Part shown: in pieces, positions 28,047 to 32,537 of the stretch
Layout of the letters: every line of letters starts with the position of its first letter
Position numbering within the stretch: the first letter of the stretch is position 1
Source: Escherichia coli
GTDB taxonomy: Bacteria > Pseudomonadota > Gammaproteobacteria > Enterobacterales > Enterobacteriaceae
DNA: 64,000 nt
Reading direction: 5' to 3' (one strand)
NCBI RefSeq assembly: GCF_001677475.2
Contig: NZ_CP015229.1
The notes under the pieces: generated by a model
What the model saw: the letters and a program-made list of their open reading frames with translations, nothing else
Database searches by the model: none
Told to the model about the DNA's origin: nothing
Position numbers and translations under genes: made by a program

Positions 28047-28856
28047 TCACCCCTGCAATATTTTGTCCATCACGCGCCCCGGCAGCAGGCGCTTGAGCAC
28101 CATTACTGCCCAGGTCACCAGCGTTACCGGATAGCGCATCTTCGGTTTCTCGCTAATAAAAGCATGGCGCACTTTGTCGACCACCGCTTCCGGCCCCAAC
28201 GTAAAGCGGGCGGCGATGCCGGGATTTTCGACTGGTTTATCGCTTTGCGTCTGGTTGACGTTGTCGGTAAAGCGAGTACGAATGGGCCCCGGCTCAATCA
28301 GGCTGACTTTAATTCCGCTGTGGCGCAGCTCCATGCGCAGCGCGTCTGACCACGCCTCCAGCGCATATTTACTGGCCGCGTAAGCGCCGCGACCCGGTGT
28401 GGAGATTAATCCCATCACCGATGAGGTCATCACAATACGCCCTTCACCGTGCGGCAACATAGCGGGTAACAGGCGCATGGTGAGCTGATGCGCGCCGAAA
28501 AAGTTGGCGGAAAACTGCTGTTCCATCTGCGCGCGGCTGATGGTGGAAAGGGGGCCATACATGCCGAATCCGGCATTGTTAAAGATCCCATACAGACAAT
28601 TATCGGTCAGGGCGATCACTTCGTCGGCAGCGCGATCAACACTTTCTGGCGAATCAAGATCGATCAACACACCGGTGAATCCCATGCTGTTCATGCGCTC
28701 AACATCATCCGGCTTCCGGCAACCTGCCAGCACATGAAAACCCTGGCGTTTTAATTCGAGCGCGCTTTCCAGGCCAATTCCACTGGAACATCCGGTAATT
28801 AAGACCGATTTTTGCATAACTTTACCTGTCAGGATCTCCGTTGCTTTATGAGTCAT
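28047..28856 (-). CDS. ybbO: Short-chain dehydrogenase/reductase YbbO
   Basis: 269 aa; Rossmann motif TGCSSGIG near the N-terminus, catalytic YAASK. Confidence 0.9.
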   Translation of the reverse strand: MTHKATEILTGKVMQKSVLITGCSSGIGLESALELKRQGFHVLAGCRKPDDVERMNSMGFTGVLIDLDSPESVDRAADEVIALTDNCLYGIFNNAGFGMYGPLSTISRAQMEQQFSANFFGAHQLTMRLLPAMLPHGEGRIVMTSSVMGLISTPGRGAYAASKYALEAWSDALRMELRHSGIKVSLIEPGPIRTRFTDNVNQTQSDKPVENPGIAARFTLGPEAVVDKVRHAFISEKPKMRYPVTLVTWAVMVLKRLLPGRVMDKILQG

Positions 28857-29472
28857 GATTTACTAAAGGCTGCAACTGCTTCGCCATCCAGTCGGCAATA
28901 AACGGCTGGGCGTCGCGGTTGGGATGAATACCGTCATCCTGCATCCATTGTGGCTTGAGGTAGACCTCTTCCATAAAAAAGGGCAGCAGCGGAACATCAA
29001 ACTCTTTGGCGAGTTTAGGGTAAATGGCGCTAAAGGCTTCATTATAACGGCGACCATAGTTTGCAGGCAGACGTATTTGCATTAACAATGGTTCAGCGTT
29101 GGCGGCTTTGACATCCTGCAAAATCTGGCGCAGCGTTTGCTCGGTTTGTTGTAGCTGAAAACCACGCAAACCGTCATTGCCGCCCAGTTCAACCAGCACC
29201 CAGCGCGGCTGATGCTGTTTCAGCAGAGCCGGAAGTCGCGCCAGCCCTTGTTGTGAGGTGTCGCCGCTGATGCTGGCATTGACTACCGACGTTTTACTCT
29301 GCCACTTATCATTCAACAAGGCAGGCCAGGCCGCGCTGGCAGACATTCGATACCCGGCGCTCAGGCTATCACCCAGAATCAATAACGTGTCCGCTGCGGC
29401 GGCACGGAAGGTTAACAGAACCAGGAACAGGAAGGGCAAATGCCAGCGGAAAACATTGTTGAAGTTCATCAT
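28846..29472 (-). CDS. tesA: Acyl-CoA thioesterase I / lysophospholipase L1 (SGNH hydrolase)
   Basis: Signal peptide then GDSLSAGY active-site motif; start at MMNFNNVF (208 aa); 5' end overlaps the divergent ybbA. Confidence 0.9.
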   Translation of the reverse strand: MMNFNNVFRWHLPFLFLVLLTFRAAAADTLLILGDSLSAGYRMSASAAWPALLNDKWQSKTSVVNASISGDTSQQGLARLPALLKQHQPRWVLVELGGNDGLRGFQLQQTEQTLRQILQDVKAANAEPLLMQIRLPANYGRRYNEAFSAIYPKLAKEFDVPLLPFFMEEVYLKPQWMQDDGIHPNRDAQPFIADWMAKQLQPLVNHDS

Positions 29473-30126
29473 CTTAAGAAGTCCGTCGGTCAGGGGGAGC
29501 ATGAACTCTCCATCCTCACCGGAGTTGAGCTGGTTGTCAAACGTGGCGAGACCATCGCGCTGGTGGGCGAGTCGGGATCGGGTAAGTCAACCTTGCTGGC
29601 GATCCTCGCCGGGCTGGATGACGGCAGCAGTGGCGAAGTGAGTCTGGTGGGACAACCGCTACATAACATGGACGAAGAAGCGCGGGCAAAGTTGCGCGCG
29701 AAGCACGTCGGCTTTGTTTTTCAGTCATTTATGTTAATTCCTACCCTTAACGCGCTGGAAAACGTCGAACTCCCGGCGCTGCTGCGCGGTGAGAGTAGCG
29801 TGGAAAGTCGTAACGGGGCAAAAGCGTTGCTCGAACAGTTAGGACTGGGTAAACGTCTGGATCATCTTCCGGCACAGCTTTCCGGCGGCGAACAGCAACG
29901 AGTGGCGCTGGCGCGAGCTTTTAATGGTCGGCCTGATGTGCTGTTTGCCGACGAACCCACCGGCAACCTTGACCGCCAGACGGGCGATAAAATTGCCGAC
30001 CTGCTGTTTTCCCTCAACCGTGAACATGGCACCACGTTGATTATGGTGACCCACGACCTGCAACTGGCGGCACGCTGCGACCGCTGCTTACGGCTGGTGA
30101 ACGGGCAATTGCAGGAGGAAGCATGA
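29440..30126 (+). CDS. ybbA: ABC transporter ATP-binding protein YbbA (LolD-like)
   Basis: 228 aa; Walker A GESGSGKST, signature LSGGEQQR, Walker B LFADEPTGNLD. Confidence 0.9.
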   Translation: MPAENIVEVHHLKKSVGQGEHELSILTGVELVVKRGETIALVGESGSGKSTLLAILAGLDDGSSGEVSLVGQPLHNMDEEARAKLRAKHVGFVFQSFMLIPTLNALENVELPALLRGESSVESRNGAKALLEQLGLGKRLDHLPAQLSGGEQQRVALARAFNGRPDVLFADEPTGNLDRQTGDKIADLLFSLNREHGTTLIMVTHDLQLAARCDRCLRLVNGQLQEEA

Positions 30127-32537
30127 TTGCACGTTGGTTCTGGCGCGAATGGCGCTCGCCGTCGCTATTAATTGTCTGGCTGGCGCTAAGCCTGGCGGTG
30201 GCCTGCGTGCTGGCGCTGGGCAATATCAGCGATCGCATGGAGAAGGGCTTAAGCCAGCAAAGCCGGGAGTTTATGGCGGGCGATCGGGCGTTGCGCAGTT
30301 CACGCGAAGTGCCGCAAGCGTGGCTGGAGGAAGCGCAAAAGCGCGGCCTGAAAGTCGGCAAGCAGCTGACTTTCGCCACAATGACCTTTGCAGGCGACAC
30401 ACCGCAGCTGGCGAACGTCAAGGCGGTGGATGATATCTACCCGATGTATGGCGATCTGCAAACTAATCCCCCAGGCCTGAAACCGCAGGCGGGCAGCGTA
30501 TTGCTGGCCCCACGCCTGATGGCACTGCTTAACCTGAAAACGGGCGACACTATTGACGTGGGCGATGCCACCTTGCGGATTGCCGGAGAAGTGATTCAGG
30601 AGCCGGATTCCGGTTTTAATCCCTTCCAGATGGCTCCGCGTCTGATGATGAATCTGGCGGATGTCGATAAAACCGGAGCCGTGCAGCCGGGAAGTCGGGT
30701 CACCTGGCGCTATAAATTCGGCGGCAGCGAGAACCAGCTCGACGGCTATGAGAAATGGCTGTTACCTCAGCTTAAACCCGAACAACGCTGGTACGGTCTG
30801 GAACAGGACGAAGGCGCGCTGGGGCGATCGATGGAACGCTCGCAGCAGTTCCTGCTGCTTTCGGCGCTTCTGACCTTGCTGCTGGCAGTGGCAGCGGTGG
30901 CTGTGGCGATGAATCATTACTGTCGCAGTCGCTACGATCTGGTGGCGATCCTCAAAACGCTGGGGGCAGGGCGAGCGCAACTGCGTAAGCTAATCGTCGG
31001 TCAGTGGTTGATGGTGCTGACGCTTTCAGCCGTTACCGGTGGGGCGATAGGTCTGTTGTTCGAAAACGTGTTGATGGTGCTGCTCAAGCCCGTTCTGCCT
31101 GCTGCACTACCGCCAGCCAGCCTCTGGCCGTGGCTGTGGGCGCTCGGCACCATGACGGTCATCTCGCTGCTGGTGGGGCTACGACCGTACCGCTTGTTGC
31201 TGGCAACGCAGCCTTTACGCGTATTACGTAATGATGTGGTAGCGAACGTCTGGCCGCTGAAGTTTTATCTGCCGATTGTCAGTGTGGTGGTTGTGCTGCT
31301 GCTCGCCGGATTAATGGGTGGCAGTATGCTGCTCTGGGCGGTGCTGGCGGGCGCGGTAGTGCTGGCTTTGCTGTGCGGTGTGCTGGGCTGGATGCTGCTT
31401 AATGTATTACGCAGCATGACGCTAAAATCGCTACCTCTGCGTCTGGCAGTCAGCCGCCTGTTACGTCAGCCGTGGTCAACGTTAAGCCAGCTTTCGGCAT
31501 TTTCGCTCTCCTTTATGCTGCTGGCACTGCTGCTGGTGTTGCGTGGCGATCTGCTCGACCGCTGGCAACAGCAGCTACCGCCAGAAAGCCCGAACTACTT
31601 TTTAATCAACATCGCAACAGAACAGGTTACACCGCTAAAAGCGTTCCTTGCGGAACATCAGATAGTCCCGGAATCGTTTTATCCGGTAGTGCGGGCGCGG
31701 CTGACGGCGATTAACGGCAAGCCGACAGAAGGCAATGAAGATGAGGCGCTCAACCGCGAACTCAACCTCACCTGGCAAAATACGCGGCCCGATCATAACC
31801 CGATTGTCGCCGGTAACTGGCCGCCAAAAGCTGATGAAGTGTCGATGGAAGAGGGGCTGGCGAAACGCTTAAACGTTACCCTCGGCGATACCGTGACTTT
31901 TATGGGCGATACCCAGGAGTTCCGCGCTAAAGTGACCAGCCTGCGCAAAGTGGACTGGGAAAGTCTGCGGCCTAATTTCTATTTTATTTTCCCGGAAGGG
32001 GCATTAGACGGGCAACCGCAGAGCTGGCTTACCAGTTTCCGCTGGGAGAATGGCAACGGCATGTTGACGCAACTCAACCGCCAGTTCCCGACCATTAGCC
32101 TGTTAGACATTGGCGCGATTTTAAAACAGGTCGGTCAGGTGCTGGAGCAGGTAAGTCGGGCGCTGGAAGTGATGGTGGTGCTGGTCACCGCCTGCGGTAT
32201 GTTGCTGTTGCTGGCGCAGGTGCAGGTGGGAATGCGTCAGCGCCATCAGGAGCTGGTGGTGTGGCGCACTCTCGGTGCGGGCAAAAAACTGCTGCGCACC
32301 ACGTTGTGGTGTGAGTTCGCCATGCTCGGGTTTGTTTCTGGCCTGGTGGCCGCAATTGGTGCGGAAACGGCGCTGGCAGTGTTGCAGGCGAAAGTGTTTG
32401 ATTTCCCGTGGGAGCCAGACTGGCGATTGTGGATTGTTCTGCCGTGCAGCGGTGCGCTGCTGCTGTCGCTTTGCGGCGGATGGCTGGGCGCGCGACTGGT
32501 TAAGGGTAAGGCGCTGTTCAGGCAGTTTGCGGGATGA
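30123..32537 (+). CDS. ybbP: FtsX-like ABC transporter permease YbbP
   Basis: 804 aa; two FtsX-type TM bundles separated by large periplasmic domains; 4-bp overlap with ybbA. Confidence 0.9.
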   Translation: MIARWFWREWRSPSLLIVWLALSLAVACVLALGNISDRMEKGLSQQSREFMAGDRALRSSREVPQAWLEEAQKRGLKVGKQLTFATMTFAGDTPQLANVKAVDDIYPMYGDLQTNPPGLKPQAGSVLLAPRLMALLNLKTGDTIDVGDATLRIAGEVIQEPDSGFNPFQMAPRLMMNLADVDKTGAVQPGSRVTWRYKFGGSENQLDGYEKWLLPQLKPEQRWYGLEQDEGALGRSMERSQQFLLLSALLTLLLAVAAVAVAMNHYCRSRYDLVAILKTLGAGRAQLRKLIVGQWLMVLTLSAVTGGAIGLLFENVLMVLLKPVLPAALPPASLWPWLWALGTMTVISLLVGLRPYRLLLATQPLRVLRNDVVANVWPLKFYLPIVSVVVVLLLAGLMGGSMLLWAVLAGAVVLALLCGVLGWMLLNVLRSMTLKSLPLRLAVSRLLRQPWSTLSQLSAFSLSFMLLALLLVLRGDLLDRWQQQLPPESPNYFLINIATEQVTPLKAFLAEHQIVPESFYPVVRARLTAINGKPTEGNEDEALNRELNLTWQNTRPDHNPIVAGNWPPKADEVSMEEGLAKRLNVTLGDTVTFMGDTQEFRAKVTSLRKVDWESLRPNFYFIFPEGALDGQPQSWLTSFRWENGNGMLTQLNRQFPTISLLDIGAILKQVGQVLEQVSRALEVMVVLVTACGMLLLLAQVQVGMRQRHQELVVWRTLGAGKKLLRTTLWCEFAMLGFVSGLVAAIGAETALAVLQAKVFDFPWEPDWRLWIVLPCSGALLLSLCGGWLGARLVKGKALFRQFAG

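What the first reader, a model, noticed from the sequence alone, without database searches (positions are those of the whole stretch)
29440..29472. Divergent tesA and ybbA coding regions overlap at their 5' ends
The first 33 nt of ybbA and the first 33 nt of tesA are encoded on opposite strands of the same DNA, so the two promoters must lie inside each other's coding sequence. This is conserved backbone but an unusual arrangement.
Basis: seen in the sequence. Interest (0 to 1): 0.15.

Follow-up and report, generated by a model that had tools for sequence, protein, structure and literature searches.

The report
Head-to-head overlap of tesA and ybbA
Two neighbouring E. coli genes that point away from each other share their first 30-33 bases on opposite strands; this rare arrangement is real, conserved in related bacteria, and already annotated and published, so it is not a new discovery.

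Summary
ybbA starts at ATG 29440 (+). tesA starts at ATG 29472 (-) in the K-12 annotation, or at 29469 in NCBI's PGAP annotation. The two reading frames therefore share 33 (or 30) nt, aligned codon on codon in antisense.

The overlap cannot be annotated away:
- ybbA has only one usable start codon.
- TesA needs its N-terminal MMNFNNVFR segment to have a normal signal peptide.

The arrangement is already known. It is in the reference annotation, it is mentioned in the 2025 YbbAP-TesA structure paper, and tesA-ybbA is listed as a "divergent excludon" in a 2025 RNA-seq survey. It is rare: one study counted only 2 divergent overlaps among 663 overlapping pairs in E. coli.

What I add comes from 80 related loci:
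- All keep the divergent tesA / ybbA-ybbP order.
- Enterobacterales keep a 30-33 nt overlap (longer in a few). Many other Gammaproteobacteria share a CATG palindrome as both start codons (2-nt overlap). Most of the rest have gaps under 60 nt.
- ybbA codons 12-35 show strongly reduced synonymous change.
- An antisense TTGACA-17-(A/G)AGGAT motif in ybbA codons 25-34 is maintained by codon choice. I predict it is the tesA promoter, but no transcription start data were available to confirm it.
- The ybbA promoter is unresolved.

The parts
29440..29472 (.). Shared segment: ybbA codons 1-11 (+) and tesA codons 1-11 (-), codon on codon in antisense register
   Evidence: Synonymous codon difference here is 0.03-0.06, against about 0.5 elsewhere, in 13 Enterobacteriaceae.
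28846..29472 (-). tesA coding sequence (208 codons; signal peptide = codons 1-26). NCBI's PGAP pipeline starts it at 29469.
   Evidence: PDB chains start at Ala27. One difference from K-12, P107L.
29440..30126 (+). ybbA coding sequence (228 codons; ATP-binding subunit of the YbbAP transporter)
   Evidence: It matches the YbbA chains of PDB 9GE6-9GE8 from Met1. ATG 29440 is the only usable start.
30123..32537 (+). ybbP coding sequence (permease), overlapping the end of ybbA by 4 nt (ATGA)
28047..28856 (-). ybbO coding sequence, downstream of tesA on the same strand; its start overlaps the tesA 3' end by 11 nt
   Evidence: PMC12646458 treats tesA-ybbO as a putative operon.
29429..29436 (+). ybbA Shine-Dalgarno sequence AGGAAGGG, the antisense of tesA signal-peptide codons Pro13-Phe14-Leu15
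   Evidence: Predicted pairing energy with the 16S rRNA anti-Shine-Dalgarno sequence is -7.0 kcal/mol. The AGGA core is conserved in 17 of 18 Enterobacterales sequences. tesA codons 12-20 show reduced synonymous change.
29535..29540 (-). Predicted tesA promoter -35 hexamer TTGACA (antisense of ybbA codons 32-34)
   Evidence: Best promoter score in the region, 10.05. Invariant in 15 of 18 Enterobacterales sequences (TCGACA in Photorhabdus and Providencia) although ybbA codon 32 varies between Val, Leu and Ile. Val33 is GTC in 39 of 46 genes against 12 expected. Prediction only; no TSS data.
29512..29517 (-). Predicted tesA promoter -10 hexamer GAGGAT (AAGGAT in most relatives), 17 nt downstream of the -35 hexamer; antisense of ybbA Ile25-Leu26
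   Evidence: Codon bias at Ile25 (ATC) and Leu26 (CTT). The match to the consensus is weak (3 of 6), though the key A2 and T6 positions are present.
29473..29544 (.). ybbA codons 12-35: block of suppressed synonymous change lying upstream of the tesA start (inferred tesA 5' UTR plus core promoter)
   Evidence: Synonymous codon difference is 0.209, against 0.507 for codons 36-228. None of 170 later 24-codon windows falls below 0.41.
29500..29502 (-). Alternative in-frame tesA ATG, 10 codons upstream, preceded by an SD-like GGAG; it would give a 63-nt overlap
   Evidence: Replaced by CTG in two and by GTG in one of the 12 other Enterobacteriaceae, and absent outside the family.
29098..29098 (+). 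Position equivalent to the nearest published + strand TSS upstream of ybbA (-342), inside tesA; a candidate promoter is TTGCAG 29061-29066 / AACAAT 29084-29089
   Evidence: Cappable-seq TSS at 518615 in U00096.2 coordinates, relative read score 2.45. Remapped with the +776 offset. The promoter is not conserved outside Escherichia.

Best explanation
This is a genuine head-to-head overlap of two real genes. tesA encodes a periplasmic lipid hydrolase. ybbA encodes the ATPase of the YbbAP transporter, which binds TesA.

Origin. The overlap is the enterobacterial form of an older design in which tesA and ybbA-ybbP diverge with essentially no spacer. In many Gammaproteobacteria the two start codons share one CATG palindrome. 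In Enterobacterales the tesA start moved about 8-9 codons upstream into what had been its 5' leader, which is also the first codons of ybbA. This gave a longer signal-peptide N-terminus (MMNFNNVFRWH) and a 30-33 nt coding overlap.

Consequence. Because there is no intergenic DNA, each gene's 5' signals are written in the partner's codons.
- Shown: the ybbA Shine-Dalgarno sequence lies in tesA codons 13-15.
- Inferred from conservation: tesA's leader and a sigma-70-type promoter (TTGACA, 17 nt, G/AAGGAT) lie in ybbA codons 12-35, with a predicted start near 29505.
- Reported by others from RNA-seq: the two mRNAs start face to face and carry complementary 5' ends. These would span roughly 29098-29505 if the weak -342 ybbA start is the one used.

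Function. I infer, without evidence, that the main effects are tight co-inheritance of the genes and some mutual damping of two weak promoters. I do not think it acts as an on/off switch.
For: Both coding sequences are real and the overlap is forced:
- ORF structure and start options.
- Reference annotations.
- Solved structures of TesA from Ala27 and of YbbA from Met1.
- LolD and MacB ATPases align to YbbA from residue 5-9, so little can be trimmed from its N-terminus.

Conservation:
- Divergent tesA / ybbA-ybbP order in all 80 loci.
- Overlap of 30-33 nt in nearly all Enterobacterales examined, with at least 39-51 nt in Pectobacterium and one metagenome-assembled genome. A 2-nt CATG overlap in at least 16 loci from Vibrionaceae to Janthinobacterium. 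62 of 77 loci fall between a 30-nt gap and a 51-nt overlap.

Embedded tesA signals:
- Best promoter score in the region, 10.05.
- ybbA synonymous difference is 0.056 in codons 1-11, 0.209 in codons 12-35 and 0.507 in the rest.
- The same motif sits at the same codons in 32 loci.
- Of 171 ybbA alignment columns, the strongest codon bias is at Val33 (GTC). Gly28, Leu26, Ile25 and Val29 rank 2nd, 3rd, 7th and 9th. GTC and CTT are not preferred E. coli codons (my own knowledge), so translational selection is an unlikely cause.

Literature:
- The operon overlap and the TesA-YbbAP complex (PMC12646458).
- tesA-ybbA is one of 16 divergent excludons found in at least 50% of 58 RNA-seq samples (PMC12288877).
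- Weak + strand TSSs inside tesA and ybbO.
Against: - I obtained no experimental tesA TSS. The minus-strand half of the Cappable-seq file is not held, and other supplements were missing or did not mention the genes.
- The -10 hexamer matches the consensus at only 3 of 6 positions, and the stricter consensus scan reported no promoter.
- Part of the motif is forced by the conserved ATPase residues Ile-Leu...Val-Lys.
- Species are not independent samples, so the z-scores are inflated.
- The codon bias also covers the promoter spacer (Gly28, Val29), which a sigma-70 promoter does not need.
- The ybbA promoter is unresolved. Only weak starts at -342, -569 and -789 are known, and they are not conserved.
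- No data here show any regulatory effect. Mutual exclusion would be odd for proteins that work as one complex.
Confidence: 0.8

Rival explanations
1. Annotation artefact: TesA really starts at TTG 29439 (codon 12). The two genes would then abut (CAA|ATG) without overlapping.
For: TTG 29439 is in frame and lies immediately next to the ybbA ATG. Back-to-back starts with zero overlap do exist in Pseudoalteromonas. A TTG or GTG is present at this codon in most Enterobacteriaceae.
Against: - The resulting 15-residue leader MPFLFLVLLTFRAAA has no basic N-terminal residue.
- It has no Shine-Dalgarno pairing (-0.9 kcal/mol).
- The codon is TGG in Citrobacter werkmanii.
- The upstream peptide M(M)NF.N.FRWH is conserved across Enterobacterales.
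- Both reference annotations use the ATG.
Confidence: 0.04
2. TesA mainly starts at the upstream ATG 29502, giving a 218-residue precursor and a 63-nt overlap.
For: - It has the strongest Shine-Dalgarno-like pairing of any candidate (GGAG, -8.4 kcal/mol).
- The ATG is present in 10 of 13 Enterobacteriaceae sequences.
- Several gene callers output 218-220 residue versions.
- Conservation of ybbA codons 12-21 would also fit dual coding.
Against: - The codon is CTG in two genera and GTG in one, and it is absent outside Enterobacteriaceae.
- The GGAG itself varies between species.
- Conservation continues about 40 nt beyond 29502, up to the predicted -35 hexamer.
- The predicted start near 29505 would leave no leader for this ATG.
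- A 36-residue leader containing Asp would be atypical.
Confidence: 0.1
3. The conserved block in ybbA codons 12-35 is not the tesA promoter and leader. It serves something else, such as ybbA mRNA structure or early-codon effects on translation, a regulator binding site, or a small antisense RNA.
For: The first codons of genes are often under extra nucleotide-level selection (my own knowledge). The bias extends to the spacer codons Gly28 (GGA) and Val29 (GTT), which a sigma-70 promoter does not require. There is no TSS evidence for tesA.
Against: - The block ends at the -35 hexamer.
- The two most biased sites build TTGAC and AAGGAT at a 17-nt spacing.
- tesA must have a promoter somewhere upstream of 29472, and no better candidate exists within 270 nt.
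- No Rfam family matches the region.
Confidence: 0.2

Closest known systems
Divergent (head-to-head) overlapping gene pairs in prokaryotes
   Same: The genes lie on opposite strands with their 5' coding ends overlapping. Such overlaps arise when a start codon moves upstream into the neighbour (PMC2716372, PMC4161906).
   Different: Many annotated long overlaps are start-codon mispredictions (my own knowledge). Here both starts are constrained, and the overlap is conserved across an order. The broader zero-spacer design is conserved across Gammaproteobacteria.
Divergent excludons (overlapping 5' transcripts of neighbouring genes; ExcludonFinder, PMC12288877)
   Same: tesA-ybbA is listed among the 16 divergent excludons of E. 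coli MG1655. Its two transcripts must be complementary at their 5' ends.
   Different: Classical excludons pair genes that are expressed alternately, and the overlap is in untranslated regions. Here the coding regions themselves overlap, and the products form one complex. Reciprocal expression has not been shown.
Face-to-face (convergent) promoter pairs with transcriptional interference, e.g. pR/pL of coliphage 186 (my own knowledge)
   Same: Two promoters fire towards each other across a short shared segment.
   Different: In the phage one strong promoter suppresses a weak one as a switch. Here both promoters appear weak. No interference has been measured, and one of the two promoters has not been located.
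Other Type VII ABC transporter systems of E. coli (MacAB-TolC, LolCDE-LolA, FtsEX-EnvC; PMC12646458)
   Same: An ATPase and permease pair works with a periplasmic partner protein. YbbA aligns closely with LolD and MacB.
   Different: I know of no comparable head-to-head start overlap between transporter and partner genes in those systems. I did not check this here.

Membership tests
Head-to-head (divergent) overlapping protein-coding gene pair | Two ORFs on opposite strands whose 5' ends share nucleotides | tested here: met
   ybbA 29440..30126 (+) and tesA 28846..29472 (-), sharing 33 nt.
Head-to-head (divergent) overlapping protein-coding gene pair | Both ORFs encode real proteins | tested here: met
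   Solved structures exist for TesA (1IVN and others) and for YbbA (9GE6-9GE8).
Head-to-head (divergent) overlapping protein-coding gene pair | The overlap does not disappear when alternative start codons are considered | tested here: met
   ybbA has a single possible start. The only non-overlapping tesA start (TTG 29439) lacks a Shine-Dalgarno sequence and an N-terminal basic residue, and it is not conserved. Direct start-codon mapping data were not available.
Head-to-head (divergent) overlapping protein-coding gene pair | Conserved in orthologous loci | tested here: met
   Overlap of 30-33 nt, or more, across Enterobacterales. A 2-nt CATG overlap in at least 16 further loci.
Excludon | Overlapping, complementary transcripts from the two neighbouring genes | not testable with these tools
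   Reported from RNA-seq coverage in at least 50% of 58 samples (PMC12288877). It also follows logically from the coding overlap if both genes are expressed.
Excludon | Reciprocal (mutually exclusive) expression of the two genes | not tested
   No expression data were available here.
Excludon | The overlap lies in untranslated regions of genes with alternative or opposed roles | tested here: not met
   The coding regions themselves overlap. The products assemble into one YbbAP-TesA complex (PMC12646458).
Sigma-70 promoter (predicted tesA promoter) | -35 and -10 hexamers close to TTGACA / TATAAT with a 16-18 nt spacer | tested here: inconclusive
   TTGACA (6 of 6), 17 nt, GAGGAT (3 of 6, with A2 and T6 present); score 10.05. 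It fails the stricter scan, which needs at least 4 of 6 in each hexamer. Conservation supports it.
Sigma-70 promoter (predicted tesA promoter) | A primary transcript 5' end about 7 nt downstream of the -10 hexamer | not testable with these tools
   The minus-strand Cappable-seq records are not held, and no other TSS table could be read.
Sec-type signal peptide (TesA residues 1-26) | Basic N-terminal region, hydrophobic core, small residues before the cleavage site, and the mature N-terminus observed | tested here: met
   MMNFNNVFR(+)WH-LPFLFLVLLTF-RAAA|ADTLL. PDB chains start at Ala27.

The most novel reading that the evidence does not exclude
ybbA codons 25-34 double as the tesA promoter, and codon choice has kept this antisense promoter in place across much of the Gammaproteobacteria. 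On this reading the zero-spacer, face-to-face layout (shared CATG, or the 30-33 nt enterobacterial overlap) is a dedicated device. It would tie the amount of TesA hydrolase to the amount of its YbbAP transporter through promoter interference or pairing of the complementary 5' ends of the two mRNAs.
Probability: 0.3. Interest if true: 0.45.

Novelty: already known. Interest (0 to 1): 0.2.

Why it matters
The finding as given adds little. The overlap is in the K-12 annotation and in two 2025 papers.

It still has some value as a clean, well-constrained example of a rare class, since only about 2 divergent overlaps are known in E. coli. Both starts are pinned down and the history can be read: a shared CATG start, then migration of the tesA start into ybbA.

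The comparative results suggest that a coding sequence can carry a conserved antisense promoter maintained by codon choice. TesA and YbbAP were recently shown to form one complex. A test of whether this layout balances their expression would therefore be a sensible follow-up for people studying that system. It also matters to anyone recoding or deleting either gene: 'TesA constructs and tesA or ybbA knockouts will disturb the neighbour's start, ribosome-binding site or promoter.

Tried and rejected
1. Consensus promoter scan of 28700-30300. It found 0 sites. I replaced it with a weight-matrix scan.

2. Experimental TSS for tesA.
- The Cappable-seq GTF is held only for the + strand.
- Conway 2014, the Rend-seq annotation, the ExcludonFinder supplements and the Ribo-RET preprint supplements are not held.
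- The ROSE, Romero 2014 and TRAINSPOTTER supplements do not mention the genes.
- Thomason 2015 is not in the library.

3. A coordinate error of my own. I first mapped the Cappable-seq coordinates with a remembered offset of +1002, which placed a ybbA TSS at -116. Checking against adk showed the offset is +776. The nearest TSS is at -342, and the -116 reading is withdrawn.

4. A conserved ybbA promoter inside tesA. None was found. Synonymous change is normal in tesA codons 21-186, and the -342 promoter is specific to Escherichia.

5. A sigma-E-type reading of the conserved ybbA block, checked by eye. The match was poor, so I did not pursue it.

6. Rfam search of 28800-30200. No match at E-value up to 1.

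7. Literature search for tesA together with TSS and antisense terms. Nothing further turned up.

Full report
**Observation.**
The + strand at 29440-29472 reads ATGCCAGCGGAAAACATTGTTGAAGTTCATCAT. Read forwards, it opens a 228-codon ORF (29440..30126, MPAENIVEVHHL...). Read backwards from 29472, it opens tesA (28846..29472, MMNFNNVFRWH...). The mechanical ORF on the minus strand extends to a further in-frame ATG at 29502.

The stretch matches 5418 of 5426 complete E. coli genomes. In those genomes the genes are annotated ybbO-tesA on one strand and ybbA-ybbP on the other.
- K-12 MG1655 annotates tesA 519139..519765 (-) and ybbA 519733..520419 (+), a 33-nt overlap.
- A PGAP-annotated strain starts tesA at the second ATG, giving 30 nt.
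- The window is identical to K-12 from 29440 to 29558.
- The two frames are in exact antisense register. ybbA's ATG is the complement of tesA His11. tesA's ATG ATG is the complement of ybbA His10-His11. A synonymous third-position change in one gene therefore hits the first codon position of the other.

**Is the overlap forced?**
It is.
- ybbA has an in-frame TAA nine codons upstream with no start codon in between. Its next in-frame start is GTG at codon 42, directly before the Walker A glycine.
- Solved LolD, MacB and MJ0796 ATPases align with YbbA from residue 5-9, near their own N-termini. The YbbA chains of 9GE6-9GE8 begin at Met1 after a tag.
- TesA's crystal and cryo-EM chains start at Ala27, so residues 1-26 are a cleaved leader.
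- The only tesA start that would avoid overlap is TTG 29439. It would leave a 15-residue leader without a basic residue, it has no Shine-Dalgarno pairing, and it is TGG in Citrobacter werkmanii.
- The upstream ATG 29502 has a strong GGAG in front. However, it is CTG in two genera and GTG in one of the 12 other Enterobacteriaceae, and it is absent outside the family.

**What is already known.**
[quoted passage not shown] It uses this linkage as support for the protein interaction (PMC12646458).
- ExcludonFinder lists tesA-ybbA among 16 divergent excludons present in at least half of 58 MG1655 RNA-seq samples (PMC12288877).
- Huvet and Stumpf counted 663 overlapping adjacent pairs in E. coli, of which only 2 are divergent (PMC4161906). 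The arrangement is rare, but it has been described.

**Comparative analysis.**
I aligned diverse TesA homologues and used the alignment to fetch 80 loci, one genome per species. They span Enterobacterales, Vibrionales, Aeromonadales, Alteromonadales, Pseudomonadales, Oceanospirillales, Xanthomonadales and two Burkholderiales.
- All 80 have a ybbA homologue on the opposite strand immediately upstream of tesA. In most, a ybbP homologue follows it.
- I anchored on the GDS motif of TesA and the Walker A motif of YbbA and listed every candidate start.
- With conservative (most downstream plausible) starts, 38 of 77 loci overlap, 24 have gaps of 0-30 nt, 13 have gaps of 31-100 nt and 2 have larger gaps.
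- Enterobacterales keep 30-33 nt. Pectobacterium has at least 51 nt because both N-termini are extended.
- At least 16 loci share the palindrome CATG as both start codons (2-nt overlap): Vibrio, Photobacterium, Psychromonas, Rheinheimera, Marinobacterium, Nitrincola, Dokdonella and Janthinobacterium. Halomonas also does when the best-Shine-Dalgarno starts are chosen.
- Pseudoalteromonas has CATATG (zero spacer), Pseudomonas a 10-nt gap, and Aeromonas about 60 nt. Only Salinicola has a long spacer (445 nt).
- The distance from the YbbA start to Walker A is constant (41-42 codons). The TesA leader is 8-9 codons longer in Enterobacterales.

The simplest history is that the tesA start moved upstream into its own 5' leader, which is also ybbA's first codons.

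**Where the control signals are.**
The ybbA Shine-Dalgarno sequence (AGGAAGGG, 29429-29436) is the antisense of tesA codons 13-15. Its AGGA core is conserved in 17 of 18 Enterobacterales sequences.

For tesA:
- A weight-matrix scan gives one outstanding site on the minus strand: TTGACA (29540..29535), 17 nt, GAGGAT (29517..29512), score 10.05. Scores of 8 or more occur 0.55 times per kb per strand in the window.
- The site predicts a start near 29505 and a 33-nt leader.
- In 13 Enterobacteriaceae the synonymous codon difference in ybbA is 0.056 in codons 1-11, 0.209 in codons 12-35 and 0.507 in codons 36-228. None of 170 later 24-codon windows is below 0.41.
- The conserved block ends at the -35 hexamer. 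The third position of ybbA codon 32 stays T although the amino acid varies between Val, Leu and Ile.
- The motif TTGAC(A/T)-17-(A/G)AGGAT occurs at the same codons in 32 loci, including Aeromonas, Vibrio, Shewanella and Alteromonas.
- A codon-choice scan used 75 genes and 171 alignment columns, so the gene's other columns, which share the same phylogeny, serve as the control. Val33 GTC ranks first (39 of 46 against 12 expected). Gly28 GGA, Leu26 CTT, Ile25 ATC and Val29 GTT rank 2nd, 3rd, 7th and 9th.

This is good indirect evidence for a nucleotide-level element on this DNA. That it is the tesA promoter is my inference. I could not obtain a minus-strand TSS.

For ybbA the picture is weaker.
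- The Cappable-seq table is in U00096.2 coordinates and only its + strand is held. It has starts at 518615, 518388 and 518168, all near the detection threshold.
- I first mis-mapped these with a remembered offset. Checking against adk gives +776. The starts therefore lie at -342, -569 and -789 from the ybbA ATG (window 29098, 28871 and 28651), inside tesA and ybbO.
- The -342 start fits TTGCAG-17-AACAAT, but that promoter is not conserved outside Escherichia.
- tesA shows suppressed synonymous change only in codons 1-20 and at its 3' junction with ybbO.
- The tesA codon-choice scan shows only a weak cluster at codons 66-72.

The real ybbA-ybbP promoter is therefore unresolved.

**Mechanism and rivals.**
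Shown:
- The coding overlap.
- Its conservation.
- The ybbA ribosome-binding site lying inside tesA.

Taken from the literature:
- The overlapping transcripts.
- The TesA-YbbAP complex.

Inferred:
- The location of the tesA promoter and leader.
- Start-codon migration as the origin of the overlap.
- Any regulatory effect.

I think the layout mainly reflects long-standing compaction of a functionally linked gene pair. The N-terminal parts of both proteins tolerate dual use: the TesA signal peptide and the YbbA N-terminal tail. Some mutual damping of two weak face-to-face promoters is possible. An alternating excludon switch is unlikely, because the products act together.

Rivals:
- tesA starts at TTG 29439, so there is no overlap (about 4%).
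- tesA starts at ATG 29502, giving a 63-nt overlap (about 10%).
- The conserved ybbA block serves another purpose (about 20%).

No Rfam family matches the region.

**Verdict.**
The feature is already known and of low interest as given. The comparative findings are modest additions that would need TSS and reporter experiments: the shared CATG starts, the start migration, and the antisense promoter-like element maintained by codon choice.

Noticed in passing
window 30123-30126 and 28846-28856: There are two more short overlaps in the same cluster, both between genes on the same strand. ybbA and ybbP share ATGA (4 nt). The ybbO start overlaps the tesA 3' end by 11 nt. tesA codons 187-200 show reduced synonymous change there.
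   Followed up: partly
window 28047-32537: The window differs from K-12 at 107 of 4491 positions (2.4%) across ybbO-ybbP. For the 28800-30200 segment, its best match among 5418 complete E. coli genomes is only 98.9%. It encodes TesA P107L and YbbA A121V relative to K-12. The strain or lineage was not identified.
   Followed up: partly
window 29500-29502 (-): An in-frame ATG lies 10 codons upstream of the annotated tesA start and is preceded by GGAG. Gene callers often choose it or even longer extensions. Database TesA homologues of 218-347 residues are probably such over-extensions into the antisense frame of ybbA.
   Followed up: partly
window 29521-29526 (ybbA codons Gly28-Val29): Codon choice is strongly non-random (GGA, GTT) inside the spacer of the predicted tesA promoter, across 75 genes. 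A sigma-70 spacer does not explain this. It could be a regulator site or an RNA element.
   Followed up: no
window 29257-29277 (tesA codons 66-72): There is a weak cluster of biased codon choice (Ala66 GCC, Ser69 AGC, Thr72 ACC) in the conserved NASISGDT block. Its antisense strand contains a TTGACT. A possible link to ybbA transcription was not resolved.
   Followed up: partly
L021 (Candidatus Pantoea persica), about 1897-2995: Only short fragments of ybbA and ybbP lie next to a truncated tesA match. This looks like decay of the whole cluster in a symbiont genome.
   Followed up: no
L015 and L016 (Pectobacterium), around 2450-2580: Both N-termini are extended (YbbA by 15 residues, TesA by about 16). 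The head-to-head overlap is therefore 51-99 nt, the longest in the sample.
   Followed up: partly
L080 (Salinicola tamaricis), 1893-2501: This is the only locus where the divergent tesA and ybbA starts are separated by a long spacer (about 445 nt).
   Followed up: no
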